The translations under genes and the position numbers were made by a program. Positions 29,569-49,183 of a DNA stretch of 64,000 nucleotides are shown here, in pieces. How positions within the stretch are numbered: position 1 is the stretch's first letter; the number at the start of each line of letters is the position of its first letter. Below the pieces are notes generated by a model that was not told where the DNA came from, searched no databases, and saw nothing but the letters and a program-made list of their open reading frames with translations. Source of the DNA: PVC group bacterium. Its GTDB lineage: Bacteria > Omnitrophota > Gorgyraeia > B26-G9. Location of the stretch: assembly GCA_024231215.1 (NCBI GenBank), contig JAAEQR010000003.1, positions 22,660 to 86,659 of the forward strand. The letters run 5' to 3'.

Positions 29569-29892
29569 TTCATGTATCGCATTTTTTCTGGAAAGTTTTT
29601 AGCCAATTCAATGCTTCTTCTTCTGCAGTAAACATTAAATCAGACCAATATATCAAGATGTAACTTAGTATATACTGATGATTGTATCATAAGATATAAT
29701 TGGGTGCAATATTATTTCATATAGAGTTAAATATTAATATAATCTTAAAAAATCTTATAAACTTAGTAAAATTGAATTGGGCGTTACGATCAACAAAAGA
29801 AAGGTTGAAAGTTTTCAGTAAATGAAGTAACATATAAAAATAACTCTTATTTGTTCTTAGTTGCCGGGAAAAAAGGAAAATCTGACGATATA

Positions 29893-30852
29893 ATGGAGAG
29901 ATTAGTAAATACCCAAAGTGGAAAGCATAGCTTGGTTGGTCGAAGTAATTCGATGCTGACTGTCTATGAACTAATAGAAAAAATTTCTCCGGTTGATGTC
30001 GGGGTCTTATTGATCGGGGAGAGTGGAACGGGTAAAGAGTTGGCAGCACATGCAATACATGGTAAAAGCGCACGAAAAGATATGCCGTTTGTTGCTGTAA
30101 ACTGTGCTGCGATTCCGGATACTTTAGCGGAAAGTGAATTGTTTGGACATGAAAAAGGGGCGTTTACCGGTGCGCAGGCAAAACGCAAGGGGAAGTTTGA
30201 ACTTGCGGATAAGGGTACTTTGTTTTTAGATGAGATCGGGGATATGAGCCTTGAAGCACAGTCCAAGATGCTTAGGATACTTGAAGAAAAGAAGTTGGAG
30301 ACGGTTGGGGGAGAGCAGAGTATTTTAGTAGATATCCGAATTATTGCCGCTTCAAACAAAGATCTTCTTCAAAAAGTAAAAGAGAGAACATTTCGGTCGG
30401 ATCTCTATTACCGACTGAATGAAATGAGAATAGACCTGCCTCCGCTAAGAGAAAGAAAAGAAGATATCTCGTTGCTGGTAAAGCATTTCATTGAGTTGTT
30501 TAATCAAGATTTTAACAAAAAAGTAAAAGGGGTTTCTGATACTGCTTTAAGTTATCTTATTAAACATAGTTGGCCTGGTAATGTTCGGGAATTGAAAAAC
30601 GTGATTAAAAGGGCAATTGCTTTAATGGAATCAGAAGTCATTTGGCTGGAGCATCTGCCGTTTGAGGTAAGGTTGCAGGCAAAAGATTATCTTAAAGACG
30701 ATTTCTCCTTGAAACAGATAGAAAGGTGTCATATTGCCGCGATATTAAATAAAACGAAATGGAACAAGAAAATGGCGGCAATGATTCTTGAAATTTCGAG
30801 GCCAAGATTAGATCGTAAAATAAAAGAGTATAATTTGACGGAGGGTAAGTAA
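29893..30852 (+). CDS. Sigma54-dependent transcriptional activator lacking any N-terminal sensor or receiver domain (AAA+ plus Fis-type HTH only)
   Basis: GESGTGKE Walker A, GAFTGA loop (EKGAFTGAQ), DEIGDM Walker B, and a C-terminal HTH (KKMAAMILEISRPRLDRKIKEY). The AAA+ domain begins about 15 aa after the ATG at 29893. Confidence 0.85.
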   Translation: MERLVNTQSGKHSLVGRSNSMLTVYELIEKISPVDVGVLLIGESGTGKELAAHAIHGKSARKDMPFVAVNCAAIPDTLAESELFGHEKGAFTGAQAKRKGKFELADKGTLFLDEIGDMSLEAQSKMLRILEEKKLETVGGEQSILVDIRIIAASNKDLLQKVKERTFRSDLYYRLNEMRIDLPPLRERKEDISLLVKHFIELFNQDFNKKVKGVSDTALSYLIKHSWPGNVRELKNVIKRAIALMESEVIWLEHLPFEVRLQAKDYLKDDFSLKQIERCHIAAILNKTKWNKKMAAMILEISRPRLDRKIKEYNLTEGK

Positions 30853-31352: not shown

Positions 31353-32825
31353 ATGAGGAAGGGACGGTATGTTGTTGTCGTTGCGGTAGCGGTTGCTTTG
31401 TTGTTGGCAGGGACTCAGTCAGCTTGGGCGCTGGACAGATTTTTAATTGGAGCACGCGGCGCAGGGATGGCTGGAGCTAATGTAGCGTGTGTAAATGATA
31501 CAACCGCGCAGTATTATAATCCGGCGGCGTTTGGTTTTATGGTTGAAGAAAGAAAAAAAGATACTGATCCGGGTAATTTTGCATGGGATACTAATATGGG
31601 GCTTGGATATCGTGTCCATGAAAATCTGGGAAAACTTTTGGATGATTTATCTAAAATAGATATTACGGAATTGGGTGCAAATGATATTCAGAACGAAACA
31701 GATTTGCAGAACTTGACTAAGGCGGCTGAGTTTATTAGCCGGCTTGATGATAAGGGAAACGCGATTAGTGTGGATGGCAATGCCGGCACAGGTGTTCGGA
31801 TAAATAATTTCGCGATCGGGGTGCGTGCTATGTATCAGGCTAGCGCAAGAGTTGCCACTGTTGATATAGCCAATCTGGGAATTGGAGTTAATATTGCTGG
31901 ACTAAATACTGATATTAATGCTGTTACATTAACGGGCGATGATGGACTGACATCTCTTTTCACCGGAGCGCAGGTAACACAGCTGACAACCGCAGGTTTA
32001 AATGCGGCTTCGATTCAACAGCTTGATTTCGCGGCAAGGCAAGCAGGGGTTAGTAGCGGGTCTACTGAATTACAACAGGCAGTTGACATGCTTGGTAGCG
32101 TTGCTACGGCAACAGCCAGTGCAACTGGTGGAGAAATTGAAAATAACACCACCAGCGCTGTATTAGAAGGATTTGGAGTGTATGAGATCCCGATTTCTTA
32201 CGGACGTGCCTTGAATGAGCATGTATCTATTGGTGGAAATCTGAAAATAATGAAGGGTAAAGTCTACGGGACCGAGATGATTGTTTTTAAAAATGATTCC
32301 GGCGATATTATGAAGGAAGCGGATGAAAATTATAAAGAGACTACGACTTTTGGTTTAGACCTGGGTGTAATGGCTAAATACGGAAAATTTAGCTACGGGC
32401 TTGTTGGCCGCAATTTAAATTCTCCAAAATTTGACGGGCCTACGGTTAATGCCAGAGTGTTCAATGATGTCACTATTGATCCTCAGGTTACTGCGGGTGT
32501 GGCATATCTTCCGTGGAACGGGTTGGTCTTAGAGTGTGATTATGATCTGACCAAGAGTGAAACAGGGTTGCCGGGATATGATACAAAGAACCTGTCTTTA
32601 GGTGTGGAATGGATGCTTATGCGGATTCTTTCTTTACGTGGTGGTATGTATGATAACATGGAAGAAAGCGATATCGGTTGGGTATATACAGCTGGTGTTG
32701 GTATAAATCTGCCATGGGTAAGCCTGGAAGTAGCCGGGGCGATGTCTTCTGATAAAAGTGATTATGACGGAGATAGTATTCCAGAAGAAAGTCGTGTTAC
32801 TGCACAGCTGAGCATTGGGTTTTAA
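31353..32825 (+). CDS. Outer-membrane beta-barrel protein, TraF_2/PorV/FadL-like
   Basis: Signal peptide ..TQSAWA, N-terminal GARGAGMAGANVACVNDTTAQYYNPAAFG, alternating beta-strand patterns, and a terminal ..AQLSIGF. Confidence 0.7.
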   Translation: MRKGRYVVVVAVAVALLLAGTQSAWALDRFLIGARGAGMAGANVACVNDTTAQYYNPAAFGFMVEERKKDTDPGNFAWDTNMGLGYRVHENLGKLLDDLSKIDITELGANDIQNETDLQNLTKAAEFISRLDDKGNAISVDGNAGTGVRINNFAIGVRAMYQASARVATVDIANLGIGVNIAGLNTDINAVTLTGDDGLTSLFTGAQVTQLTTAGLNAASIQQLDFAARQAGVSSGSTELQQAVDMLGSVATATASATGGEIENNTTSAVLEGFGVYEIPISYGRALNEHVSIGGNLKIMKGKVYGTEMIVFKNDSGDIMKEADENYKETTTFGLDLGVMAKYGKFSYGLVGRNLNSPKFDGPTVNARVFNDVTIDPQVTAGVAYLPWNGLVLECDYDLTKSETGLPGYDTKNLSLGVEWMLMRILSLRGGMYDNMEESDIGWVYTAGVGINLPWVSLEVAGAMSSDKSDYDGDSIPEESRVTAQLSIGF

Positions 32826-32958: not shown

Positions 32959-32987
32959 TTGCTGAGAATAGAAAAATATGGTATACT
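32959..32987 (+). promoter_or_regulatory. Cluster promoter P1 (TTGCTG-17 nt-TATACT, embedded in ATATGGTATACTT)
   Basis: Read directly from the sequence. It shares the ATATGGTATACTT block with P2-P6. Confidence 0.6.
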
Positions 32988-33020: not shown

Positions 33021-34271
33021 ATGACTGGATATGAAATGCGAAAAATATTAAAAATAACCGGATGTATTTTCCTGTTAGCGGGAGTTTTATGTAATGCGCA
33101 AATTGGGGTTTCTCAAGAAGCGTGTTCTAATAATTTACTATCTCCGCGGCTTTCATTACAGCAGGAACATTTTCTTAGGATTTTTTCTGCAGATAAAATT
33201 CCGGCTATTAGACGGACTACGGATAGTAAAACTACTTATTTACCTGCGGATTATAGTTTGGAGGTAAAGGAAATACTTGTCCAGGTGAATTATTGGGGAA
33301 CTATGGAATATGTGATAGACGAAATACATCAAAAACTTCCGCAAGATATTGCGATGGTTATCATTTTTAATGAACGCATTAAGCCGTATTTAGATTATGC
33401 TAAAAACAAGTTATCTTCTCGAAAAGTAAGATTTATAATGTCTGAAAAAATCAGCGTTTGGGCAAGAGATAATTATATCTATTCTTTTTCTAAAAACAAA
33501 CCGATAATGGTGTTTCCAGACGGAGAGTTGCTGCGTAATATGATAGAATTGACGACAGATAAAAGAGCTATCTATAAACTCGCGAAGAAGTTGAAAATAA
33601 AAATAAAACAGGCAAAGTTTCATTTTACCGCGGGTGATATTATGACGGATGAAGAAAATATATTTGTCGGTGCGGCTACTATGCAGGATAACTTTAATAG
33701 ATATAAAATGTCTTGGAAGGAAACGTCTAAAAAAATGCAGGCTTTATTTGGAAATCCGATAGAAGTTCTGCAATTAGATGTAAATGATATTGATAATGTG
33801 CTTACTCTTTTACCGGGCAAGCGGGCAGTATTGGGTAATAATGAGCAGTTTGATAGTTTTTTAAAGGGCCATTATCATGAAAAAGTTGGTGACATTAAAA
33901 AACGTTTACTGGAGTTAGGATATGCGGTTATTGATATCCCCTGGCGGCCGCATGAAATTGATCATGGCCATGCTGATACGACTACGCTGATCTCTTATAA
34001 TAATGTTGTCTTTTTAGACCGTGATAGAATACTTTTGCCTCAGTATGGAATACCGGCAGATAAGGAAGCCATAATGACTTGGGAGCAATTAGGCTATAAG
34101 GTTATCCCGGTTCAGGCATTTTGTAACGGGGAGCATGGCGGAAGTATTCGTTGTTTTACGAATATTATCAACGCTGATTTTATTAATTATGATTCCGAAG
34201 ATTCTTCTAGAATATTCTGTCCCTCAGTTTCTCTTCAGCCGTTAGAACAATTGATTGAAATGGCTATATAA
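33021..34271 (+). CDS. Tagged-family member 1: exported agmatine/peptidyl-arginine deiminase-like protein (guanidino-group-modifying fold)
   Basis: VWARDNY, FHFTAGDIMTDEENIFVG, HGHADTT and GEHGGSIRCFTN (catalytic Cys context). The leader is followed by LLSPRLSLQ and the C-terminus is QLIEMAI. An alternative start is the ATG at 33036. Confidence 0.75.
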   Translation: MTGYEMRKILKITGCIFLLAGVLCNAQIGVSQEACSNNLLSPRLSLQQEHFLRIFSADKIPAIRRTTDSKTTYLPADYSLEVKEILVQVNYWGTMEYVIDEIHQKLPQDIAMVIIFNERIKPYLDYAKNKLSSRKVRFIMSEKISVWARDNYIYSFSKNKPIMVFPDGELLRNMIELTTDKRAIYKLAKKLKIKIKQAKFHFTAGDIMTDEENIFVGAATMQDNFNRYKMSWKETSKKMQALFGNPIEVLQLDVNDIDNVLTLLPGKRAVLGNNEQFDSFLKGHYHEKVGDIKKRLLELGYAVIDIPWRPHEIDHGHADTTTLISYNNVVFLDRDRILLPQYGIPADKEAIMTWEQLGYKVIPVQAFCNGEHGGSIRCFTNIINADFINYDSEDSSRIFCPSVSLQPLEQLIEMAI

Positions 34272-38772: not shown

Positions 38773-38801
38773 TTGACGAAGTATGCCTTATATGGTATAC
38801 T
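38773..38801 (+). promoter_or_regulatory. Cluster promoter P3 (CCTTGACG-17 nt-TATACT)
   Basis: TTGACG at 38773-38778 and TATGGTATACTTTAC, with the hexamer at 38796-38801. Confidence 0.7.
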
Positions 38802-38861: not shown

Positions 38862-41800
38862 ATGGGTATCAATAAGAAATACCTATATCTAAGAATTATT
38901 GCATGTATTCTAATACAGGCGGTTTTGTTTGGTAACAGCGGCTTGATCGGAGTAGTGCGCGCAGAAAACTTCCTGTCGCCGGTTTTAGAAATAAATAATA
39001 AGCTGGTTAAGACTTCGTTTGAAACTCCTCAGGTAAAAAGTCGTCGTTTTGTTCATAATCTGGATGATTTATCAAAACTTTCCCGCCGCAAAAGAGATGA
39101 TCTCGAAATAAATGTTCTTAAAAGAATTAGAAATATTAATCTCAAAGGTTTTAATTTTTTATCAAGGGAGGAGCAGGAGAATTTCATTTTTGTTGATTTG
39201 GACTTTGCGGAGTATGTGTTAAAGACTATCTTTACCGATAAGATTAAAGAGGACATGTCTCAGAAGAACGTATCTTATGAAATCATAACAAGGATTATAG
39301 TAGACATGTTTATTCTTTTAAACAAGGTGTTAGAACAACAAGAAGGACAGGATAATACCTATATCGCATGCACTAATTATACTTTTTCTAAAGATAGAAA
39401 AGGACAGACATATGTACTCACGGTTAATTTTGAGAAAAAAGGAGTGGAAGCTAAAATATCAAAATTTATAGCCGAAGAAATTGATGCAGAAATGCCGAAT
39501 ATTGTCTCAGTGTCCGGGCCGATAGAAAAAATCACTGGAAATAAAAGTATAGATGTTAGTTTTTACGGGGTTTCAAAAAATAACAAAGTGCTTACCCCAT
39601 CGGAAATAACCCGAGCAGTGAAGAAGCTGCCGCCGAACGCAGAGAATATAGATATTTCGGAATTAAGAATTGCGCATAAAAGATTACTTAATTTGGCCAG
39701 AGATCGTTACGAAAAACAGGATATTTTAAAAGAAATAACCCCAGCCATAGAGAGGAAAATAAAAACAGGTATTGTTGCGGAAGGGACATCTTCTTTTACC
39801 CCGATTACTGAGAAGGCTTTTGTGGGAAAGATTATTTGCGCGGAAGTGGTAGAAAAAGAGAAAAAGCCGACATATCCTTTAGTTTCATATTATTCGGAAA
39901 CATTGAGGAAAGATCTGAGATTATTAGATAATGCTATAAATACGGCTATGTATAAGTATGAAGGTATAGATATTAATACGGTTCATCATTTTTTGCAGGA
40001 TGCCTTTGCGTTTGCAAGACATGATTCTCGGGAAACACGCAAGGCTCCGACAGCTCAATTTTTATCGCATCTTATGGATGAGCGGAAGGCAGTGCGGGTT
40101 AGAATTCGAAAGGAATTATTGGAGATTATTACATATACGCCGATGTTAAATAAAGACAATGAGCCAAGAGAGATTTCGGAAATCATGGAGGAAGAGCTAG
40201 CTGAGTTAGCGGAACTGCAAGATTACGAAGACAATATGTATATCTGGGGAGAACTGAACAGGCTTAATCAAGAGGATTTGCTATGGGATAACATCATGTC
40301 TCAAGCAAATGAAATTGTGGGTAATATATATCAATATATAGAAGGAGTGGACCCTGAACCTAAAAATGAAAAAGAGCAGATGGCTTTAGATGCGATTGAA
40401 AATGCGAGGAAGGCAGTCCCAACAGATACTCAAATTGGGTCTATGGTCGATACTGTATTACAAGATCTGCCGCGGCAGTTATTTGCCTGGTTAAGAAAAT
40501 ATGATTGTTCTTTACATGAGGCGTTTTTTCGGTCTATGCAACCTATTGTAGACCAGTTAGTTCAAGCTCAAGAACATACGTCGCAAATGAAAGGAGGGCT
40601 TTCTTTAAATCTCCATACCGAACTTTGTACTTTTGTGGATACTGTATTGTTGGAACTGGGAGAGTATGAATCGCGGCATGTAGTGGTACATAATGACTCG
40701 GAGAAGGAGCCATTTATATTATATGTGCCGGGAGACCTAGGAGGGCCGGAGGAATATTTGCGTTTTCGGCGTCTTTATCCGAATATGGTAGGGATTGTAG
40801 TTAAAGAAGGAGCTAAACATTATGCGGTAATGGCCGGAGATCACGGATTCCCGGTGATTAATAAAATTGATTTAATTGAAATGAGCGAAGGAAAATTGCC
40901 GTTAGAGCTGGTGTTAAAAAAGAAAACTAATGGAATTATGCGTATTAGCAGGGGAGGGAAAGCGTTTTTATATATAAACCCTTCATTGAGGGATACCCTT
41001 GAGGCGGAAACTATTATAAAAACAGCGCAGGCAATTAAAATATTGTGTGAAGCTAATATAGATTTAGAAGGAGAAGATGGGAAATTAAAGACGTATGATG
41101 GAGTAGAAGCGCCTGAGATAATGATGAATTTGGATATTGCCGAAGATGCGGAAGACTTGCCGAGCCGGGTAATACGGAAAATAGGTCTTTATCGTACAGA
41201 ATATGAGTATGAACGTCATGGAGAGTTAACAGAAGAAGCATGGTATAAAATTTTTAAGAAAATTGTTAAAGATTCAGAGGGCGATTTTATCGCTGTACGT
41301 TTACCGGATAGAAAAGTATCCGGAGAAGGTGGGGATATAAAAAATCCTAAAGCTTTTGGAAAAAGTAATCTTGAAGGACTTGATTTTTTGCTTGATGAAA
41401 GAGCTAAGGGCAGGCGAATCTCAACGATAATATTAAGGGCCCTTATGAGAGTATATGCAGAAGACGGAGTCGTAGGTGCTCTTTTTCCCATGGTTTCGCA
41501 AGAAAGAGCCGAAGGAATAATCGACTTTGTCGAAGAAATAAAAGAGAATTTAATCTTTGAACAAAAAAATAAAAATAAGCGGGAAGCTTTGGAAGAGGCG
41601 TTAGACAGCTTTTCCGTGGGAGCGATGTTTGAAACTCCTCAGGCTTTTGAATTTAAAAAAGAGCTTATGGAGATTTTTGATTTTGTAAGTTGGGGGAGTA
41701 ATGACTGGAAGATGGCTTCTTCCGGGAAGTCAAGAGGTGCTCAGGGAACGACCAAAGAATTGATTTCATTTACGCCTGAGGTTGTAAAAACCGCATTAGC

Positions 41801-42191
41801 GGCAGGTAAGATGAGCAGGAAGAAGGAAGTACCTTTTTCTATCTGTGGTAAGCTTGCGTCTACCCCTGAATTCATTCTATTTTCACTATATGCAAAGTCG
41901 TTGTCGCTTTTTGATATCCGACTAAGCGTTGGTAAAGATTCTATAGCGTACGTCAAAGAATTTATTCGCCATGTCGATACTAGACGCATTAAAGATATCT
42001 TTAATGATTATCGAAAAGGTTATGATCAGAATAAATTTGATGAGAAAATAGCAGATGAAATAGAAAACATAGTGCTTTCTATGGGAGAATTAGCCAAGCC
42101 TTTTCTACAGGGACAAGTTAAGATGTCGTTACAGAAGAAAAGGGGGCAGGCATCGAAGGCTCCTGTGTTAGTGCATGAGTATGCAATATAA
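38862..42191 (+). CDS. Tagged-family member 3: 1109-aa protein whose C-terminal half resembles PEP-utilising enzymes (swivel His-domain plus TIM barrel, PtsI/PPDK-like)
   Basis: GAKHYAVMAGDHGFPVI (compare GGxTSHAAIxARxxGIPAV), GLYRTEYEY (compare GLFRTEFL), LFPMVS, VGAMFETPQAF, FVSWGSNDW (compare SIGTNDL) and FSICGKLAS (compare CGEMAG). Leader ILIQAVLF, FLSPVLEIN box, C-terminus LVHEYAI. Confidence 0.8.
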   Translation: MGINKKYLYLRIIACILIQAVLFGNSGLIGVVRAENFLSPVLEINNKLVKTSFETPQVKSRRFVHNLDDLSKLSRRKRDDLEINVLKRIRNINLKGFNFLSREEQENFIFVDLDFAEYVLKTIFTDKIKEDMSQKNVSYEIITRIIVDMFILLNKVLEQQEGQDNTYIACTNYTFSKDRKGQTYVLTVNFEKKGVEAKISKFIAEEIDAEMPNIVSVSGPIEKITGNKSIDVSFYGVSKNNKVLTPSEITRAVKKLPPNAENIDISELRIAHKRLLNLARDRYEKQDILKEITPAIERKIKTGIVAEGTSSFTPITEKAFVGKIICAEVVEKEKKPTYPLVSYYSETLRKDLRLLDNAINTAMYKYEGIDINTVHHFLQDAFAFARHDSRETRKAPTAQFLSHLMDERKAVRVRIRKELLEIITYTPMLNKDNEPREISEIMEEELAELAELQDYEDNMYIWGELNRLNQEDLLWDNIMSQANEIVGNIYQYIEGVDPEPKNEKEQMALDAIENARKAVPTDTQIGSMVDTVLQDLPRQLFAWLRKYDCSLHEAFFRSMQPIVDQLVQAQEHTSQMKGGLSLNLHTELCTFVDTVLLELGEYESRHVVVHNDSEKEPFILYVPGDLGGPEEYLRFRRLYPNMVGIVVKEGAKHYAVMAGDHGFPVINKIDLIEMSEGKLPLELVLKKKTNGIMRISRGGKAFLYINPSLRDTLEAETIIKTAQAIKILCEANIDLEGEDGKLKTYDGVEAPEIMMNLDIAEDAEDLPSRVIRKIGLYRTEYEYERHGELTEEAWYKIFKKIVKDSEGDFIAVRLPDRKVSGEGGDIKNPKAFGKSNLEGLDFLLDERAKGRRISTIILRALMRVYAEDGVVGALFPMVSQERAEGIIDFVEEIKENLIFEQKNKNKREALEEALDSFSVGAMFETPQAFEFKKELMEIFDFVSWGSNDWKMASSGKSRGAQGTTKELISFTPEVVKTALAAGKMSRKKEVPFSICGKLASTPEFILFSLYAKSLSLFDIRLSVGKDSIAYVKEFIRHVDTRRIKDIFNDYRKGYDQNKFDEKIADEIENIVLSMGELAKPFLQGQVKMSLQKKRGQASKAPVLVHEYAI

Positions 42192-42202
42192 AAGAGGATA
42201 TT

Positions 42203-44296
42203 ATGGGATTTTCTGGTAAAAAAAGATCGGGCAAATCAATATCTTCACGAATTATCACCCTGATAATTCTACAGATCTTTTTTGTCTCAGGATTGTTGTC
42301 CCTAGGCAATAGCTTTGCTGCGGATACTCACCAAACCTGCCTTTCTCCCCGTGTAAATATATCTAATGCGCTAGTCAAAAATTCTTTTAGTACCTTTAAA
42401 AAGCTTAATTTAAATGATTTGTTTGAAGGATTTGCAGAGGGTATTCTAGACATCGATAAGGTAGATCACTGGTTAGTTGGTCGCAATGAATCTATCGCTT
42501 ATGAGTTTAAAACAGATTTAGTTCCTAAAATTGTACAACAACCCAATGCAAAATGGTTTTTAGAACAAATACTTGCAGAAGATAAACTTAAGCCATTACA
42601 TTTTGAAGCCCAAGCTGTTCTTTTGCAGATACGTTTTAAAGAGCTTGGATATCCTAACCATAACCCAGCCTGGAGACATTTTATATCTTCGATGAAAGAA
42701 GGGCTTCAATTCCTGGAAAACCCTGAAAACTTAGAGAATAAGGATGTAGTTATCGGCACTTGTCATGTGGCTGCGGATTCGGATTCTGTGGCTGCGGCAA
42801 TTACGTGGTATGAACGGGAAAGAATGTTAGCAGAGAATCGAGGAAAGGTTTTTATTCCTTTGATCTCTAATGAGGACAGGGATATAAATCTTGAAACAGA
42901 GAGACAATTGCATATTTGTGGGATAATAGCAGAGGATCTGATATACGCTTTTCCTAGTAAAGAGATGGAGAAAAGAGGCGAGGTTAAAAGCCTGATACAG
43001 CAGAAACTTGAGGCTATTGCTAAAACAAAATATAAGAGTAGAATAAAAATTGATTTGCTCGATCATAATGCGGTACAGGTTGACTGGTTAAAACCTTTTA
43101 AAGTACGTAAGATATATGATCATCATAACCCGGAAGTGGATATGCCGGAATTGGCCCCGGGAAATGATTATGTCCGCATTGAAGCCTCCACGACAACCAT
43201 AATTGCTCAGGAAAACATGAAAGATCGTATTTTCCATAGATCATTTCCACAGATAAAGTTTTTGACTATGGCTACCTTGCTTTCAGATACAGACTGTTTA
43301 AATTCAGATATTACACAGCAAGAAACTCTCGGGATTTTATCTCGGATGGCAAAGGATATGGGTTTTTTAAAAAAAGTGCAGTTAAATGGCGGCATAGGCT
43401 CTAGTGGTAAGATTGATTTTGAAAAAATGGAACGCTATTTTGAAATCATAGTTGATAGGGTTTATCTGAACCGGCATTCTTATGTAGAGGAATGGCTGAG
43501 GGATTGTAAGACATATAATGGGTTTGAATTCGGCCAGTCAAAAGTTATATCTTGGGAAGAGTTGTCTGAGAAAAAAGAAATGGAATTAATCGAAGGCATG
43601 AGAAATAAACTTAATGAAAACGATGACAATGAAGCTATTGTTTGGATGGTATCTTCAATGAATCCGTCTGAGTATGGCAGTAAATTTTATGCAATATGTA
43701 AAGATGACCCAGATGGGGCTAAGGCAGAACAGATTATTAGCCAGGTGATGTATCAAAGTCCGGTAAGGATCGGGCTGGTGCGGTCGATATATGTGAATCC
43801 GGCAATACATGCGTACCAGAAAGACTCTCCGGTGAATCCAGTGAGAGTTTTGAATAGAGCTTATAGACAATTTGATCTTAATCTGGATAGATCAACCAAG
43901 AAACAGATGATGGAAAAGATAAGCAATTTGATACAAGATTATGGAAGTAGATTGAAAAGGGATTTGGTTTATAGATATTATTCGTATGAAATAACCAGTG
44001 ATATAATTGAATTTCTGGAGTCAAAAGGCATATCCTGGATACATGCGGAAGTAATGAAGCCGGAAAAAATATATATCGAGGAAATAGGATTAAAAAACGA
44101 AAGAACGCGCAGGGTTCAAATGCCTGGATTTGCTTCCCGGAAGAATATAAAAAATGAGGTTGAAGGCGCAGTCGCGGAAATCATCAGAATAAATAAAGCT
44201 GAGAGGACATTGCGTTTGAACCTCCGCAATGAAATTATGGGCGCTGATGCTGCTTTTGGAATTCAAGCAAAAGAGTTAGTCTTACAGGCTATTTGA
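42203..44296 (+). CDS. Tagged-family member 4: DHH-family phosphoesterase-like protein (family II pyrophosphatase / nanoRNase-type motifs)
   Basis: CHVAADSDSVAAA (DxD), LLDHNAV, IYDHHNP (DHH) and TLLSDTDCL motifs. Leader IILQIFFV, CLSPRVNIS box, C-terminus ELVLQAI. The start is 11 nt after the previous stop. Confidence 0.8.
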   Translation: MGFSGKKRSGKSISSRIITLIILQIFFVSGLLSLGNSFAADTHQTCLSPRVNISNALVKNSFSTFKKLNLNDLFEGFAEGILDIDKVDHWLVGRNESIAYEFKTDLVPKIVQQPNAKWFLEQILAEDKLKPLHFEAQAVLLQIRFKELGYPNHNPAWRHFISSMKEGLQFLENPENLENKDVVIGTCHVAADSDSVAAAITWYERERMLAENRGKVFIPLISNEDRDINLETERQLHICGIIAEDLIYAFPSKEMEKRGEVKSLIQQKLEAIAKTKYKSRIKIDLLDHNAVQVDWLKPFKVRKIYDHHNPEVDMPELAPGNDYVRIEASTTTIIAQENMKDRIFHRSFPQIKFLTMATLLSDTDCLNSDITQQETLGILSRMAKDMGFLKKVQLNGGIGSSGKIDFEKMERYFEIIVDRVYLNRHSYVEEWLRDCKTYNGFEFGQSKVISWEELSEKKEMELIEGMRNKLNENDDNEAIVWMVSSMNPSEYGSKFYAICKDDPDGAKAEQIISQVMYQSPVRIGLVRSIYVNPAIHAYQKDSPVNPVRVLNRAYRQFDLNLDRSTKKQMMEKISNLIQDYGSRLKRDLVYRYYSYEITSDIIEFLESKGISWIHAEVMKPEKIYIEEIGLKNERTRRVQMPGFASRKNIKNEVEGAVAEIIRINKAERTLRLNLRNEIMGADAAFGIQAKELVLQAI

Positions 44297-44379: not shown

Positions 44380-44408
44380 TTGACAGGTTGTATTTCATAT
44401 GGTATACT
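44380..44408 (+). promoter_or_regulatory. Cluster promoter P4 (CCTTGACA-17 nt-TATACT)
   Basis: TTGACA at 44380-44385 and ATATGGTATACTTTACC, with the hexamer at 44403-44408. A GC hairpin gggccg/cggccc (44436-44456) lies in the leader. Confidence 0.7.
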
Positions 44409-44480
44409 TTACCGCTTTTATAATAATTAATGTAGGGGCCGCGCTCGGCTCGGCCCGAATAGTCTATAGAAGAGGTAAAT

Positions 44481-46363: not shown

Positions 46364-49183
46364 ATGTTATCTAAGAGATTCGTAAAAATTATTTCAATTG
46401 TAATCATTCAGGCATTTTTGGTTTTGGACTTTGCCTGGGCCATGGGGCCTGATGCCAGATTTTTTGATGCCGGAGCACAGGAATATCTTGCTCCGACATT
46501 AACTATTAACAGCGCGCCGATTCAGGCAACTTTGCAAAATATGATGGCGCGTGAGAAATCACTTCAGGATGTTATTGATTTTGGCAAAGAAGAAAAAACA
46601 GAATTCTTTGCCGGGTTATCTAAAGAAGAAAAAATAAAACAGCTTGAACAATGGATGGCTGCGTCTTTTGAAGGCGGCGGACCCAAAGGCGCTTATGAAG
46701 CAGGGATTGGACAACTGTTTATGGAGTCATGGATGCATTTGAAAAACCAGGGCAAGGAAGATGTTACCGGGTTTGATGTTATCGGGGGTAACTCCGCAGG
46801 TGCAATTAATGCTTTGTTTTTTAGTTTAGCAATAATGTATGATCCGACTTTTGTTAAATATAATGAAATTACCTGGGTAAAACATTTAAATTTAAAGAAT
46901 TTATTAGAACCGGGCCAAAATTATAATCCTAAGAACGCAGTTTTTTCCAGCCAAATAATAGATCGCGCAATAAAAGCCATAGAGCAAAAGTTGGAAGAGT
47001 GTAAGAATAACGACAAGACTCTTTCTTATGCTCCGGAAGAGATAAGAGTTGTTTTTTCAGTAACCAATCTTAGTGGAACTCCTTATTGGGATGAAGTGAA
47101 GAATCTTCTGGATGGTAAAAAAGGTATTAGATATGACCACCAGGGGAAAATCCATTTTACAATTAAAAAGAAAGACCGCTACAGTCCTGAGACTATGGAA
47201 ATGCTTACATTGATGATGAAAGTTGCGGTAGCTTCAGCATCAATTCCAATTGTTTTTGAAGCGCGAAAAATAGCTCAGTCAGTTAGAGCTTATCCTGGCA
47301 GCATTTTGGCAAACATGGCTGTGAAAGCCGGGAAATGGCTTACCGAAAAAATCACATCAATTTTTGTCGATGGAATGCTTGTAGACAACAAGGCGATAAA
47401 AACAGTAGCAAAGCTAGCTAGGAAGAAGGATATTGAAGAGGGAATGCTGAACAGCAATTTGCGCAATAGATTGCAAGTGGCTATTTCACCGAATGTAATA
47501 GATGATACCGAAGGAGAAAGATTTGATAAACAGGATATCCCTTCTGTTGCTATGAAGAGCCTTAGTGCGGTTATGGCGCAAGTTCTTTATCAGAATGAAA
47601 AGATTGATGAGATAAATAAGAAAAACACGCTGATTACGCATTTCATACAGGATATACAGAAACAGGCTGAAAAAGTAAAGCGTTATAAATGGAGTAAGAA
47701 GCGACTAAAGCAGGAGATTGATGAGTTATTATTCGGATCAAGTTACAGTCTTATTAAACGCAAAAGTGAAAATAGAGCCAAAAGACACATTCTAAAGGAA
47801 ACAGGAAAAGAAGTGGAATATGAAGCGACCAAGGATGAAGTAGCCTGGTATATAAAAAGAAATAAAGAACGTGTAATCAGGCAGCGTTTGCTGGCCAACG
47901 GAATTATTACCGAAGCACAGCTTAACAGTCAGGATGAACGGGATAAATTGTTTATTGATTACTTGGCACTTTTTACGTTTGTCGAGGAATGCGGTCGTGA
48001 TTTAAGAGGCAGGGAAGAAGTATACGTACATCAGATTGCGCCAACTAAGCATCCTTTGGCATCTGATCTCTTGCTCGGGTTTTTGAGTGAGGATGTCAGG
48101 CAGGCTGATTTTAATCAGGGATATGAAGATGCACGATTGGCATTGGAGGCGCTTTTAGGTGTGGATCTTTCTGGTTTGCGCCGGCAGGAATCGGTTCAGC
48201 AGACGGAAGGTTATCAGTTTGCTTATAGCAATGTTTCTTTGACAGAAAGAAAAGAAATAGTAAATATGCTTATTGCCAGAGCAAAACTTATTGTTAAAAC
48301 TATCTTAAGCAAAAAACATTCGTCCTTGGTGGGTAAAATATTCGCTCAGCCGGGGATTGTGGGAAGAAATATTCTGCTTAGTGGTGCTTTAATATTTGTT
48401 AAAAAAATGCTGGCAAAACAATTTCATATTCCTCAGGATGAAAAAAATGCTAAAGCAAGAAGAGTCGAGTCTTTAAAGCTAAATATGCGTAATAATATTT
48501 TATATAAAGAGAATGAACTTTATAATTTAAAGGAAACAAAAGCAAGGCTGGAGCAAATAGCTAATTCTAAGAAGCCGGTTGCAGTTATTGTAGGTAGTGA
48601 TTTAGAAACTTCATTTGAGGCAATGTCTGTGATTAGTAGGTATAGAAAAGATATTACTATTCTTAAAGCACCACATGGAGAGACCCCTGGACAAGCTTTG
48701 CGAACAAGTTATACAAAAGGAAAAGAGACTATTGATTTACATAAATCTACCCAATATAACAGAGATGTTATTTTAAAAACTTTTATTTTAAATTCAGGAA
48801 TTTTAATTAGTACTAAAAAGATGCTGGATAAATATTCTCGAATTGGAGGTAATTACAAAATTACAGAATTGGGGGAAAAAGCAGAAGCCGAGTGGGCAAC
48901 AATTATTAATAATAAAGAACATATAATTATATTGGGAGAGACCCCGGAACAATTAAAACCGATATTAAAGGATAAGGATGTATTAGAAATAGAGACAGCA
49001 AAGCATAGGAAGGCTTTGAATAGAAAAATCCCCTTTGTCGGCAGGAATGTTTGGGAGAAATATTTTGGCAAAGATAAGCAAGCTAAAACACGTAATTTAC
49101 TGGACCTTCGTTATGTACCTAGTTTTGGTGGATATAAACAACCATTGATGATGCATAATAATCTGGTGAATATAGCAATTTAA
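46364..49183 (+). CDS. Tagged-family member 6: 939-aa patatin-like phospholipase with a long C-terminal extension
   Basis: FEGGGPKGAYEAG (oxyanion GGGxxG), GGNSAGA (GxSxG) and VDGMLVDN (catalytic Asp region). Leader VIIQAFLVLDFAWA, YLAPTLTIN box, C-terminus NLVNIAI. Confidence 0.85.
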   Translation: MLSKRFVKIISIVIIQAFLVLDFAWAMGPDARFFDAGAQEYLAPTLTINSAPIQATLQNMMAREKSLQDVIDFGKEEKTEFFAGLSKEEKIKQLEQWMAASFEGGGPKGAYEAGIGQLFMESWMHLKNQGKEDVTGFDVIGGNSAGAINALFFSLAIMYDPTFVKYNEITWVKHLNLKNLLEPGQNYNPKNAVFSSQIIDRAIKAIEQKLEECKNNDKTLSYAPEEIRVVFSVTNLSGTPYWDEVKNLLDGKKGIRYDHQGKIHFTIKKKDRYSPETMEMLTLMMKVAVASASIPIVFEARKIAQSVRAYPGSILANMAVKAGKWLTEKITSIFVDGMLVDNKAIKTVAKLARKKDIEEGMLNSNLRNRLQVAISPNVIDDTEGERFDKQDIPSVAMKSLSAVMAQVLYQNEKIDEINKKNTLITHFIQDIQKQAEKVKRYKWSKKRLKQEIDELLFGSSYSLIKRKSENRAKRHILKETGKEVEYEATKDEVAWYIKRNKERVIRQRLLANGIITEAQLNSQDERDKLFIDYLALFTFVEECGRDLRGREEVYVHQIAPTKHPLASDLLLGFLSEDVRQADFNQGYEDARLALEALLGVDLSGLRRQESVQQTEGYQFAYSNVSLTERKEIVNMLIARAKLIVKTILSKKHSSLVGKIFAQPGIVGRNILLSGALIFVKKMLAKQFHIPQDEKNAKARRVESLKLNMRNNILYKENELYNLKETKARLEQIANSKKPVAVIVGSDLETSFEAMSVISRYRKDITILKAPHGETPGQALRTSYTKGKETIDLHKSTQYNRDVILKTFILNSGILISTKKMLDKYSRIGGNYKITELGEKAEAEWATIINNKEHIIILGETPEQLKPILKDKDVLEIETAKHRKALNRKIPFVGRNVWEKYFGKDKQAKTRNLLDLRYVPSFGGYKQPLMMHNNLVNIAI

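What the first reader, a model, noticed from the sequence alone, without database searches (positions are those of the whole stretch)
42203..44296. Tagged DHH-family phosphoesterase, translationally coupled to the PEP-utiliser gene
All four DHH motifs occur in canonical order: H-x3-D-x-D (CHVAADSDS), DHN (LLDHNAV), DHH (IYDHHNP) and SDT (LLSDTDCL). The protein begins 11 nt after the previous stop. DHH enzymes hydrolyse pyrophosphate, nanoRNA, pAp or cyclic dinucleotides, which are all intracellular metabolites. An exported copy could deplete signalling nucleotides in a target cell, or it may act together with the upstream phosphotransferase.
Basis: partly seen in the sequence, partly recalled or inferred. 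Interest (0 to 1): 0.55.

Follow-up and report, generated by a model that had tools for sequence, protein, structure and literature searches.

The report
Exported polyphosphatase-like DHH enzyme, doubly tagged
The gene encodes a very divergent DHH-family phosphatase whose nearest relatives split polyphosphate or pyrophosphate rather than signalling nucleotides. It is one of at least eleven unrelated proteins in this window that share an export-type leader and a six-residue C-terminal tail, a tag pair that recurs on other contigs, one assigned to Omnitrophota.

Summary
ORF 42203..44296 (+) encodes 697 aa and starts 11 nt after the upstream stop, behind its own Shine-Dalgarno sequence. All four DHH motifs are present in order (H188/D192/D194, D287-H288-N289, D306-H307-H308, D362-T363). 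Pfam DHH is significant but below its cut-off (22.8 against 28.1 bits). An independent profile of 40 PPX1-like proteins gives 53 bits and hhalign 97.3%.

The protein is almost an orphan: two remote relatives among 1.84 billion representatives. Everything it resembles belongs to DHH subfamily 2 (DHH+DHHA2): yeast exopolyphosphatase PPX1 and family II pyrophosphatases, by sequence and by fold (TM 0.62-0.68). The DHHA1 nucleotide and nanoRNA enzymes match much less well (TM 0.42-0.48). Polyphosphate or pyrophosphate hydrolysis is therefore more likely than destruction of cyclic dinucleotides. The DHHA2 half alone is only weakly supported by sequence.

The "tag" is real and has two parts: a Sec-type leader (LIQAFL..D.AWA, then a [TC]L[SA]PxIxI box) and a tail h-h-x-Q-A-I at the C-terminus (here LVLQAI). 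Eleven of eleven tagged window proteins have both parts, and none of 22 untagged ones has the tail. At least 21 more occur on metagenome contigs, one of them assigned to Omnitrophota. A conserved promoter box makes the PEP-utiliser and DHH genes one transcription unit. A tagged PEP-utiliser orthologue elsewhere has no DHH gene next to it. I judge it a new variant of a known enzyme kind; the tag system is the more interesting part.

The parts
38773..38801 (+). Promoter-like box of the two-gene unit: TTGACG, 17 nt, TATACT, with the extended -10 TGGTATACTT
   Evidence: 10 of 12 matches, TG present; exact TGGTATACTT occurs six times in the window, each time upstream of a tagged gene unit. Aligned.
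38862..42191 (+). Tagged PEP-utiliser gene (1109 aa). Enzyme-I-like PEP-binding domain at aa 744-1039; N-terminal leader plus LSPVLEI box; C-terminal tail ..HEYAI.
   Evidence: Pfam PEP-utilizers_C E=2.2e-23. PDB Enzyme I C-terminal domain 6vu0 E=2e-10, with YRTE, ETP, GSND and CGK aligned to the Enzyme I motifs. Tag.
42192..42202 (+). 11-nt intergenic spacer AAGAGGATATT with a Shine-Dalgarno-like GAGG
42203..44296 (+). The DHH-family gene, 697 aa plus stop
42203..42319 (+). Leader, aa 1-39: basic n-region (KKRSGK..R), hydrophobic core RIITLIILQIFFVSGLLSLG, SFA|A cleavage-type site
   Evidence: The only strongly hydrophobic 19-aa window of the protein is at aa 17-35 (Kyte-Doolittle 2.35). AF2 predicts a helix at 13-35. 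It aligns with the family leader. Cleavage is inferred from the -3/-1 rule and was not tested.
42341..42361 (+). Post-leader box LSPRVNI (aa 47-53), the [TC]L[SA]PxIxI element of the tag
42362..42742 (+). Helical N-terminal extension, aa 54-180. No family match. Only aa 152-180 align to the N-terminal helix of PPX1-like proteins.
   Evidence: (no Pfam family), (helices, pLDDT 60-84)
42743..43372 (+). DHH catalytic domain, aa 181-390
   Evidence: Pfam DHH at aa 186-336. hhalign and hmmsearch with profile A4. AF2 pLDDT about 90.
42764..42787 (+). Motif I: H188-x3-D192-x-D194-S195
   Evidence: D194 invariant; D192 and S195 conserved in at least 90% of 48 sequences
43061..43069 (+). Motif II: D287-H288-N289
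   Evidence: D287 and H288 invariant
43118..43126 (+). Motif III: D306-H307-H308
   Evidence: invariant
43283..43291 (+). Motif IV: S361-D362-T363
   Evidence: D362 invariant
43475..43912 (+). DHHA2-like domain, about aa 425-570. Motif V is R433-D434-x-K436. The best candidate for the SRKK-type motif VI is R563-S-T-K566-K567-Q. The alternative is S645-R646-K647.
   Evidence: hhalign runs on in register to aa 512. D434 and K436 are invariant in 48 sequences. The DHHA2 part alone is weak: 5.4 bits with 15 of 1799 scored shuffles as high, and hhalign P=0.0015. The AF2 model matches PPX1 and family II pyrophosphatases over both domains.
43913..44275 (+). C-terminal helical extension, aa 571-691. 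No family match; low model confidence for aa 611-646.
44276..44293 (+). C-terminal tail L-V-L-Q-A-I-COOH, the second part of the tag
   Evidence: 11 of 11 tagged window proteins and 16 of 17 complete tagged proteins in the metagenome loci end h-h-x-[QMSY..]-[AGS]-[IVL]. None of 22 untagged window ORFs does.
44380..44408 (+). Promoter-like box of the next unit (TTGACA, 17 nt, TATACT, TG-extended). It marks the end of the PEP-utiliser/DHH unit.

Best explanation
The gene encodes a metal-dependent phosphoanhydride hydrolase of DHH subfamily 2 (DHH plus a DHHA2-like domain). Its relatives are exopolyphosphatase PPX1 and family II inorganic pyrophosphatase. The most likely chemistry is removal of phosphate from short polyphosphate and/or pyrophosphate at a two-metal centre formed by H188, D192, D194, D287, D306, H307, H308 and D362. 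The DHHA2 lysine and arginine residues (K436, and R563/K566/K567 or R646/K647) would hold the substrate. The enzyme core is framed by a Sec-type leader with a family-specific LSPxIxI box, a helical N-terminal extension, a helical C-terminal extension and a six-residue C-terminal tail. The leader places the body outside the producer's cytoplasm. The gene is transcribed with the tagged Enzyme-I-like PEP-utiliser from one regulon-type promoter. It is one cargo among at least ten consecutive, otherwise unrelated, tagged proteins.

Shown: ORF, motifs, superfamily, subfamily affinity, tag at both ends, operon layout.
Inferred: export and cleavage, substrate, activity.
Speculative: delivery into a prey or host cell, where it would destroy polyphosphate or pyrophosphate stores while its partner consumes PEP.
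For: Motifs and their order. DHH profile matches. NCBIfam hits only to Mn-dependent pyrophosphatases. Remote relatives P0002 and P0003 both carry Pfam DHH above threshold, and P0003 also carries DHHA2. All 120 listed hits of the three-sequence profile are DHH and/or DHHA2 proteins (most carry both), and where a source names them they are called exopolyphosphatase or Mn-pyrophosphatase. Independent profile A4, which excludes the query: 53 bits over aa 158-503; hhalign 97.3%, E=2e-11 over aa 152-512. PDB by profile: PPX1 2qb6 at 5e-22, family II pyrophosphatases at 1e-12. Fold of the MSA-based AF2 model (pLDDT 70, DHH domain about 90): PPX1 TM 0.68 and family II pyrophosphatases 0.62-0.68, against DHHA1 enzymes at 0.42-0.48 with rmsd 13-15 Å. 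The DHN + DHH signature marks the exopolyphosphatase/pyrophosphatase group, and His in motif I is typical of pyrophosphatases (PMC3022644). Leader and tail. One transcription unit.
Against: Pfam DHH is below the gathering score (22.8 bits for the full protein and 26.0 for the excised domain, against 28.1). No Pfam DHHA2 hit. The DHHA2 region alone scores only 2-5 bits, and the position of motif VI is ambiguous. The structural match comes from a model built on an alignment of PPX1-like sequences, so it is biased towards that fold; the single-sequence model was uninformative (pLDDT 37.6). There are no orthologues, so conservation under selection cannot be judged. Export and cleavage are inferred from hydrophobicity, charge distribution and the -3/-1 rule only. 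No substrate was tested.
Confidence: 0.6

Rival explanations
1. One reading: an exported nucleotide phosphodiesterase (c-di-AMP, c-di-GMP, pApA/nanoRNA or pAp) that depletes signalling nucleotides in a target cell.
For: The DHH catalytic motifs are shared by all subfamilies. Foldseek still finds NrnA, GdpP and DhhP at E of about 1e-8 through the DHH domain. Human Prune, a DHHA2 protein, was once reported to have cAMP phosphodiesterase activity, as mentioned in PMC3022644.
Against: No DHHA1 hit in Pfam or NCBIfam. No GGGH motif in the sequence. The DHHA1 enzymes superpose poorly (TM 0.42-0.48, rmsd 13-15 Å). All sequence relatives are DHH+DHHA2. The same paper found no cAMP phosphodiesterase activity in TbrPPX1.
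Confidence: 0.12
2. An obligate two-enzyme module. The PEP-utiliser runs a PPDK/PEP-synthase-type or Enzyme-I-type phosphotransfer, and the DHH enzyme pulls the reaction by hydrolysing the pyrophosphate or phospho-product. On this view the tight gene spacing reflects a functional, possibly physical, complex.
For: One promoter box serves both genes and the gap is 11 nt. The PEP-binding domain keeps its catalytic-type motifs. The DHH enzyme has the His of pyrophosphatases in motif I. Another tagged cargo elsewhere is a clear PPDK_N + PEP-utilizers protein (L076 13209.., E=2.4e-78), so PEP/PPi chemistry recurs among the cargoes.
Against: The tagged orthologue of the PEP-utiliser in L079 (phmmer 2e-45) stands alone, transcribed divergently from its array, with no DHH gene nearby. 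No DHH protein occurs in any of the 11 related loci. No ATP-grasp or swivel domain was detected in the window's PEP-utiliser. Neighbouring tagged genes are packed just as tightly (14-nt gap at 46349/46364) without any evident functional link.
Confidence: 0.2
3. A housekeeping envelope enzyme. The leader acts as a signal or anchor, and the enzyme works in the producer's own periplasm or on its surface, scavenging phosphate from environmental polyphosphate or pyrophosphate. It would not be an effector.
For: The Sec-type leader has a basic N-flank. Secreted phosphatases used for phosphate acquisition are common (general knowledge). Unlike kinase or methyltransferase chemistry, polyP or PPi hydrolysis needs no ATP.
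Against: The same tag and promoter serve cargoes that need cytoplasmic cofactors and so make little sense in a periplasm: PEP-utilisers, PPDK_N, ATP-grasp + methyltransferase. The tag conserves polar Q and D residues within the hydrophobic core and adds a C-terminal tail, which an ordinary Sec substrate does not need.
Confidence: 0.2
4. A catalytically dead scaffold, as Cdc45 is among DHH proteins. The DHH fold would then serve only as a binding module within the tagged protein set.
For: Extreme divergence (two remote relatives only), large non-catalytic extensions, a Pfam score below threshold.
Against: Every metal-binding and catalytic position that is invariant in 48 subfamily-2 sequences is retained: D194, D287, H288, D306, H307, H308, D362, D434, K436.
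Confidence: 0.08

Closest known systems
Saccharomyces cerevisiae exopolyphosphatase PPX1 (PDB 2QB6/2QB7) and the PPX1-like DHH+DHHA2 proteins of protists and bacteria
   Same: Best sequence-profile and fold match. Same order of motifs I-IV. DHN in motif II and DHH in motif III. It shares the long motif I to motif II spacer with the 'IPxIN..D..L.TE' stretch (here IPLISNEDRDINLETE). The R-D-x-K motif follows the linker.
   Different: PPX1 is a cytosolic protein of about 390 aa with Asn in motif I. This protein has His there, and also has a leader, a 130-aa N-terminal helical extension, an insertion in or after the DHHA2 domain, a 120-aa C-terminal extension and a tail. Identity is only about 16-20%. 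Pfam DHHA2 is not detected.
Family II (Mn2+/Co2+-dependent) inorganic pyrophosphatases, e.g. Bacillus subtilis PpaC (1K23, 2IW4)
   Same: The only NCBIfam families hit (NF003877, E=2.6e-7). H-x3-D-x-D in motif I, LxDHN, DHH, SDT. Fold TM 0.62-0.68.
   Different: The score is far below the equivalog cut-off (30 against 283 bits). Family II pyrophosphatases are about 310 aa, cytoplasmic, and have a short motif I to motif II spacer and a clear SRKKQ motif.
Prune / PRUNE1 short-chain exopolyphosphatases
   Same: Same subfamily 2 architecture. One of the two remote relatives (P0003, a eukaryotic transcript) belongs to the same PPX1/Prune-like subfamily-2 set. Its own motifs read DHN and DHH, so by the rule it is PPX1-type rather than Prune-type.
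   Different: Prunes carry DHH in motif II and DHR in motif III (PMC3022644). This protein has DHN and DHH, so it is not of the Prune type.
DHH+DHHA1 nucleotide enzymes (NrnA, GdpP, DhhP/Pde2, RecJ)
   Same: Same DHH catalytic domain and metal chemistry.
   Different: No DHHA1 domain and no GGGH motif. Whole-chain superposition is poor. These enzymes are the ones that act on cyclic dinucleotides, nanoRNA and pAp.
Known protein-sorting tags (Sec signal peptides; C-terminal tags such as PEP-CTERM/exosortase, LPXTG/sortase, the T9SS C-terminal domain)
   Same: A short conserved terminal sequence shared by many unrelated cargo proteins that are encoded in clusters.
   Different: Here the tag has two parts: a leader with conserved Q and D inside the hydrophobic core followed by a [TC]L[SA]PxIxI box, and a bare six-residue tail with no transmembrane helix or folded domain. 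No Pfam or NCBIfam model matches either part. No dedicated sorting enzyme was identified.

Membership tests
DHH phosphoesterase superfamily (Pfam PF01368) | Motif I, DxD | tested here: met
   D192-S-D194, preceded by H188. D194 is invariant and D192 is conserved in at least 90% of 48 aligned sequences.
DHH phosphoesterase superfamily (Pfam PF01368) | Motif II Asp, motif III DHH and motif IV Asp, in that order | tested here: met
   D287, D306-H307-H308, D362. One of 20,000 shuffles reproduces a loose version of the arrangement.
DHH phosphoesterase superfamily (Pfam PF01368) | Score at or above Pfam's gathering threshold | tested here: not met
   22.8 bits for the whole protein and 26.0 bits for the excised domain, against 28.1. 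E-values of 1e-4 to 1e-5 are nevertheless significant, and an independent profile gives 53 bits and hhalign 97.3%.
DHH phosphoesterase superfamily (Pfam PF01368) | DHH fold | tested here: met
   AF2 model with alignment: DHH domain pLDDT about 90. Foldseek hits to 64 DHH-family chains at E<=1e-3. Caveat: the model depends on an alignment of family members.
DHH subfamily 2 (DHH+DHHA2: PPX1, family II pyrophosphatases, Prune) | DHHA2 domain C-terminal to the DHH domain | tested here: inconclusive
   No Pfam DHHA2 hit. The DHHA2-only profile gives 5.4 bits, reached by 15 of 1799 scored shuffles, and hhalign P=0.0015. In favour: the full-length hhalign runs in register to aa 512, and the two-domain model superposes on PPX1 and the pyrophosphatases.
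DHH subfamily 2 (DHH+DHHA2: PPX1, family II pyrophosphatases, Prune) | Motif V (DxK) and motif VI (SRKK-type) of DHHA2 | tested here: inconclusive
   R433-D434-C-K436 is present, and D434/K436 are invariant in 48 sequences. Motif VI has two candidates, DRSTKKQ at 562-568 (chosen by MAFFT and AF2) and ASRKN at 644-648 (chosen by hmmsearch). They were not resolved.
Exopolyphosphatase/pyrophosphatase group within subfamily 2, as opposed to Prune | DHN in motif II and DHH in motif III (Prune has DHH and DHR); Asn in motif I for exopolyphosphatases, His for pyrophosphatases (PMC3022644) | tested here: met
   D287-H288-N289 and D306-H307-H308, with H188 in motif I, which is the pyrophosphatase-type residue. 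The overall sequence is nevertheless closer to PPX1-like proteins.
Family II inorganic pyrophosphatase (NCBIfam NF003877, equivalog) | Score at or above the curated cut-off | tested here: not met
   30.4 bits against 283. It is a relative, not a member.
DHH subfamily 1 (DHH+DHHA1: NrnA, GdpP, DhhP, RecJ) | DHHA1 domain with the GGGH motif | tested here: not met
   No DHHA1 family in the Pfam or NCBIfam output. No GGGH in the sequence; NGGIGSSG at 395-402 lies in the low-confidence interdomain linker. Whole-chain TM 0.42-0.48.
Any DHH enzyme | Metal-dependent phosphoesterase activity and substrate | not testable with these tools
   Requires enzyme assays.
Sec-exported proteins | Cleavable N-terminal signal peptide: basic n-region, hydrophobic core, small residues at -3 and -1 | tested here: inconclusive
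   n-region KKRSGK..R, a single hydrophobic segment at aa 17-35, and S37-F-A39|A40. The same layout is seen in 31 aligned leaders. No signal-peptide predictor or experiment was available.

The most novel reading that the evidence does not exclude
The leader plus LSPxIxI box and the C-terminal h-h-x-Q-A-I tail together form a previously undescribed two-part sorting tag of an Omnitrophota-like (PVC-group) lineage. The tag would direct a co-regulated arsenal of cytoplasm-type enzymes out of the cell and into a prey or host cell. The cargoes seen so far are a PEP-utiliser, PPDK-like proteins, this polyphosphatase-like DHH enzyme, patatin lipases, a PAD-like enzyme, an ATP-grasp/methyltransferase protein, and HEAT and TPR proteins. 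The DHH enzyme would then be the first exported subfamily-2 DHH effector, attacking the target's polyphosphate or pyrophosphate pool.
Probability: 0.3. Interest if true: 0.75.

Novelty: new variant of a known kind. Interest (0 to 1): 0.42.

Why it matters
The enzyme core is a familiar kind, so the gene alone is a modest find: a highly divergent, export-tagged relative of PPX1 and family II pyrophosphatase with no orthologues in public data. Its setting is what matters. It is one of many unrelated, mostly cytoplasm-type enzymes that share a leader, a short C-terminal tail and a promoter box, on contigs from several metagenomes, one of them assigned to Omnitrophota. That phylum consists of tiny, uncultured bacteria suspected or shown to be predators or parasites. 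If the tag marks delivered effectors, it gives a sequence handle for listing the whole effector repertoire of these organisms and for finding the machinery that recognises it. It would also point to polyphosphate, pyrophosphate and PEP metabolism of the victim as targets.

Tried and rejected
- **PDB by sequence.** phmmer of the whole protein and of the excised DHH domain against PDB sequences found nothing meaningful.
- **Homologue search.** The word-indexed search found only the protein itself.
- **Single-sequence AlphaFold model.** Unusable, pLDDT 37.6.
- **Pfam on parts.** The C-terminal 297 aa and the N-terminal 186 aa hit no family.
- **Tag profile search.** Searching the 5.8-billion-protein index with the 11-tag profile found nothing, because the profile is too short and weak for that database size.
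- **PEP-utiliser in genome contigs.** Nothing found.
- **The look-up of encoding contigs.** The DHH protein is not on record. The closest relative, P0002, sits on a 2.9-kb contig with no context.
- **Shared leader with P0002.** Rejected; BLASTP of the N-terminal regions gives E=8.9.
- **Taxonomy from MnmA.** Ambiguous: 60% identity to a MAG labelled Planctomycetia and 52-57% to Syntrophales. The Omnitrophota link rests on the NCBI label 'PVC group bacterium', on a tagged protein annotated as Candidatus Omnitrophica, and on NCBI taxonomy.
- **afdb50 fold library.** Not available.
- **Motif VI.** Attempts to choose between the two SRK-type candidates by deleting segments were inconclusive.
- **Swivel phospho-histidine domain in the PEP-utiliser.** It looked plausible by eye ('GAKHYAVMAG'), but Pfam did not detect it, so I make no claim.
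- **TraF_2-like barrel or sigma-54 activator next to other tagged arrays.** Not found.
- **Literature.** Searches for the tag string and for secreted DHHA2 enzymes found no description.
Full report
**Observation**

The ORF is as described: 42203..44296 on the + strand, ATG start, 697 aa. The upstream ORF (38862..42191) ends with TAA at 42189-42191. The 11-nt spacer reads AAGAGGATATT, so the gene has its own Shine-Dalgarno-like GAGG 5 nt before the ATG.

In 20,000 shuffles of the protein, DHH appeared 310 times. A loose four-motif arrangement in the right order and spacing appeared once. The pattern is therefore not chance.

**Is it a DHH protein?**

- Pfam DHH matches aa 186-336 with E=1.2e-4. 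The score is below the gathering threshold: 22.8 bits for the whole protein and 26.0 for the excised domain, against 28.1.
- The only NCBIfam families matched are manganese-dependent inorganic pyrophosphatases (NF003877, E=2.6e-7, aa 275-387), far below their equivalog cut-off.
- The protein is nearly an orphan. The word-indexed search of 5.8 billion proteins returned only itself, annotated 'MAG: hypothetical protein GY853_00300 [PVC group bacterium]'.
- The exhaustive HMMER search of 1.84 billion cluster representatives returned two remote relatives. P0002 (960 aa, E=1.3e-10) has a DHH region, then a hydrophobic segment, then a DOT1-like methyltransferase. P0003 (a eukaryotic transcript, E=4.6e-6) has DHH plus DHHA2.
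- A profile of the three sequences found 300 proteins. All 120 listed carry DHH and/or DHHA2, most of them both, and those that a source names are called exopolyphosphatase or Mn-dependent pyrophosphatase.
- To avoid circularity I aligned 40 of those hits without the query, P0002 or P0003 (A4). That profile finds the query at 53 bits over aa 158-503. hhalign gives 97.3% probability and E=2e-11 over aa 152-512.
- In a 48-sequence alignment, D194, D287, H288, D306, H307, H308, D362, D434 and K436 are invariant. D192, S195, N289 and T363 are conserved in at least 90% of sequences.

Superfamily membership is well supported, and the catalytic set is intact.

**Which subfamily?**

PMC3022644 summarises the classification. 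Subfamily 1 has a DHHA1 domain (RecJ-type; the later-described NrnA, GdpP and DhhP nucleotide enzymes also belong there, from my own knowledge). Subfamily 2 has a DHHA2 domain with two extra motifs and comprises pyrophosphatases, exopolyphosphatases and Prunes. [quoted passage not shown] Exopolyphosphatases have Asn in motif I where pyrophosphatases have His.

The query has DHN (287-289), DHH (306-308) and His188. That places it in the exopolyphosphatase/pyrophosphatase group, with the pyrophosphatase-type histidine. Its long motif I to motif II spacer (IPLISNEDRDINLETE) resembles PPX1-like proteins.

Further evidence on the subfamily:

- A profile search of PDB sequences gives yeast PPX1 (2qb6) at 5e-22 and family II pyrophosphatases at about 1e-12 (partly driven by P0003).
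- The single-sequence AlphaFold model was useless (pLDDT 37.6). With the 48-sequence alignment the model reached pLDDT 70 and pTM 0.68, with the DHH domain near 90.
- Foldseek against the PDB ranks PPX1 first (E=9e-15, target-normalised TM 0.68). Eleven family II pyrophosphatase entries follow (TM 0.50-0.68).
- NrnA, GdpP, DhhP and RecJ-like chains come later, at TM 0.42-0.48 and rmsd 13-15 Å, meaning that only the DHH domain fits.

The caveat is that the DHHA2 half is weak on its own. There is no Pfam hit. A DHHA2-only profile gives 5.4 bits, which 15 of 1799 scored shuffles reach. hhalign gives P=0.0015, aligning LRDCK to LRKDYK. The SRKK-type motif VI could be DRSTKKQ at 562-568 (MAFFT and AF2) or ASRKN at 644-648 (hmmsearch). 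I could not decide between them. No GGGH motif and no DHHA1 match exists.

My reading is that the enzyme is a subfamily-2 phosphoanhydride hydrolase. PPi and/or short polyphosphate are the likely substrates. The cyclic-dinucleotide, nanoRNA and pAp options are unlikely.

**Anatomy beyond the core**

- aa 1-39: basic n-region, the only strongly hydrophobic segment of the protein (aa 17-35, Kyte-Doolittle 2.35), and an S-F-A|A site.
- aa 47-53: the box LSPRVNI.
- aa 54-180: a helical extension with no family match.
- aa 181-390: the DHH domain.
- About aa 425-570: the DHHA2-like domain.
- aa 571-691: helices of low to moderate confidence.
- The last six residues: L-V-L-Q-A-I.

**The tag**

Eleven ORFs of the window share an N-terminal module: 15252, 33021, 34458, 38862, 42203, 44481, 46364, 49449, 55089, 56668 and 58097. 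The module has a basic start and a hydrophobic core with conserved Q and usually D or N (consensus K-I-I-A-V-V-L-I-Q-A-F-L-L-L-D-V-A-W-A-G). It continues with 8-25 variable residues and then [TC]-L-[SA]-P-x-[IL]-x-I-[DNS]-x3-h-[QK]-x2-F. Apart from these first 60 or so residues the proteins are unrelated.

A metagenome scan with the leader pattern found 11 loci holding at least 20 more tagged ORFs. These again form same-strand tandem arrays of large, unrelated proteins. One of them is MBU1087610.1, annotated Candidatus Omnitrophica bacterium. NCBI places Omnitrophota within the PVC group, which fits the label of this MAG.

An HMM of 31 leaders separates the 11 window ORFs (40-69 bits) from everything else (9 bits or less).

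While checking gene junctions I saw that the tagged proteins also share their C-terminus:

- All 11 window proteins do so: LVEYAI, LIEMAI, LVEMAI, ..HEYAI, LVLQAI, AISISI, LVNIAI, LIGMAI, FVESAI, LLEQAV, LVEQGV.
- 16 of 17 complete tagged proteins in the loci end in h-h-x-[QMSY]-[AS]-[IV], mostly ..EQAI.
- None of 22 untagged window ORFs does.

No Pfam or NCBIfam model covers either element. I found no description in the searchable literature.

**Cargo and what it suggests**

Window cargoes include:

- a PAD_porph-like enzyme
- the Enzyme-I-like PEP-utiliser
- this DHH enzyme
- a patatin lipase
- a TPR protein
- several large unknowns

Cargoes elsewhere include HEAT-repeat proteins, an ATP-grasp plus methyltransferase protein, a PEMT-like protein and a clear PPDK_N + PEP-utilizers enzyme.

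The basic N-flank and acidic C-flank of the hydrophobic core predict that the body lies outside the cytoplasmic membrane, whether or not the leader is cleaved (inference from the positive-inside rule). Enzymes that need ATP, SAM or PEP have no obvious use in a periplasm. Delivery into another cell is therefore an attractive reading, and predation is documented or inferred for Omnitrophota (10.1101/2023.11.21.568195). This is inference, not demonstration.

**Operon**

A box TTGAC(A)-N17-TATACT with the extended -10 TGGTATACTT(T) lies 60-80 nt upstream of each tagged unit. Exact copies are at 32979, 34393, 38793, 44400, 49401 and 58034. The same box recurs before arrays in L074, L076 and L079.

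There is none between 38862 and 44296, and the next is at 44380-44408. The PEP-utiliser and the DHH gene thus form one two-gene unit. Co-transcription is well supported. Translational coupling in the strict sense is not demonstrable, and the gene has its own ribosome-binding site.

The PEP-utiliser's aa 745-1039 align with the PEP-binding domain of Enzyme I, with YRTE, ETP, GSND and CGK aligned to the Enzyme I motifs.

The pairing is not conserved. A tagged orthologue in L079 (1110 aa, phmmer 2e-45, tail ..VGSAI) is monocistronic with no DHH gene nearby. None of the 11 loci encodes a DHH protein.

**Verdict**

DHH membership, the tag, probable export and co-transcription hold. The signalling-nucleotide idea does not hold.
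- The best explanation is an exported PPX1/family-II-pyrophosphatase-like phosphoanhydride hydrolase. It is one cargo of a doubly tagged, co-regulated protein set (confidence about 0.6 for enzyme class and location, lower for an effector role).
- Novelty: a new variant of a known enzyme kind. The two-part tag noticed along the way is, as far as I could search, undescribed, and it deserves its own follow-up.

Noticed in passing
window 15252, 33021, 34458, 38862, 42203, 44481, 46364, 49449, 55089, 56668, 58097 (N-termini); L070-L079: A shared N-terminal module on 11 otherwise unrelated window proteins and at least 21 proteins in metagenome loci. It has a basic start, a hydrophobic core K-I-I-A-V-V-L-I-Q-A-F-L-L-L-D-V-A-W-A-G with conserved polar Q and D/N, a variable linker, and then a [TC]L[SA]PxIxI...[QK]xxF box. 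No Pfam or NCBIfam model covers it.
   Followed up: partly
window: last 6 codons of the same 11 ORFs (e.g. 44276-44293, 42171-42188); L071-L079 tagged ORFs: A second, C-terminal tag. All N-tagged proteins end in h-h-x-[QMSY]-[AGS]-[IVL]-COOH, typically LVEQAI. This holds for 11 of 11 in the window, 16 of 17 complete ones elsewhere, and 0 of 22 untagged ORFs. It could be a PDZ or tail-specific-protease ligand, a secretion signal or a degron; none of these was tested.
   Followed up: partly
window 32979, 34393, 38793, 44400, 49401, 58034 (+); L074 about 3117, L076 about 10432, L079 about 5376: A conserved promoter-like box TTGACA-N17-TATACT with the invariant ATATGGTATACTTTA upstream of each tagged gene unit. 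It also occurs upstream of tagged arrays in other genomes, which suggests a dedicated regulon.
   Followed up: partly
window 29851-30852 and 31353-32825: A sigma-54-dependent activator (E=2e-70) and a TraF_2/PorP-SprF-like outer-membrane beta-barrel (E=1e-31) lie immediately upstream of the ten-gene tagged array. The barrel is a candidate partner for the tagged proteins, but no homologue sits next to the arrays in the other loci.
   Followed up: partly
window 25925-28153: A patatin + POTRA + Omp85 fusion protein (742 aa), the architecture of PlpD-type (type Vd) secreted lipases. It is untagged and separate from the tagged patatin at 46364-49183.
   Followed up: no
window 33021-34271: A tagged protein with a Porphyromonas-type peptidyl-arginine/agmatine deiminase domain (PAD_porph, E=4.6e-9).
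   Followed up: no
L076 13209-14765 (runs off the locus): A tagged protein with a strong PPDK_N domain (E=2.4e-78) followed by the PEP-utilizers mobile domain. It is an ATP-dependent PEP synthase/PPDK-type enzyme behind an export-type leader. Together with the window's PEP-utiliser and its L079 orthologue, this makes PEP chemistry a recurrent cargo.
   Followed up: partly
L001 (GCA_028710405.1, JAQTUD010000109.1), protein P0002: The closest relative of the DHH protein is a fusion: a DHH/DHHA2-like region, then a hydrophobic stretch, then a DOT1-like SAM methyltransferase. It sits on a 2.9-kb contig (GC 46%) and is truncated at both ends.
   Followed up: partly
window 44436-44457: A GC-rich inverted repeat (GGGGCCGCGCTCGGCTCGGCCC) in the 5' leader between the promoter box and the start of gene 44481. 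It is unlike the AT-rich leaders of the other units.
   Followed up: no
whole window: Gene orientation is almost uniform: 34 of 38 ORFs of at least 150 aa are on the + strand, and three of the four on the - strand lie inside longer + strand ORFs. GC skew is strongly positive and constant (0.13-0.32), with GC at about 38%.
   Followed up: no
L079 7880-7955 and 10450-10483; L074 12351-12410: Short simple repeats lie in the spacers between tagged genes in other genomes, for example (GGTGTAGG)n and (AAAGTTAA)n.
   Followed up: no
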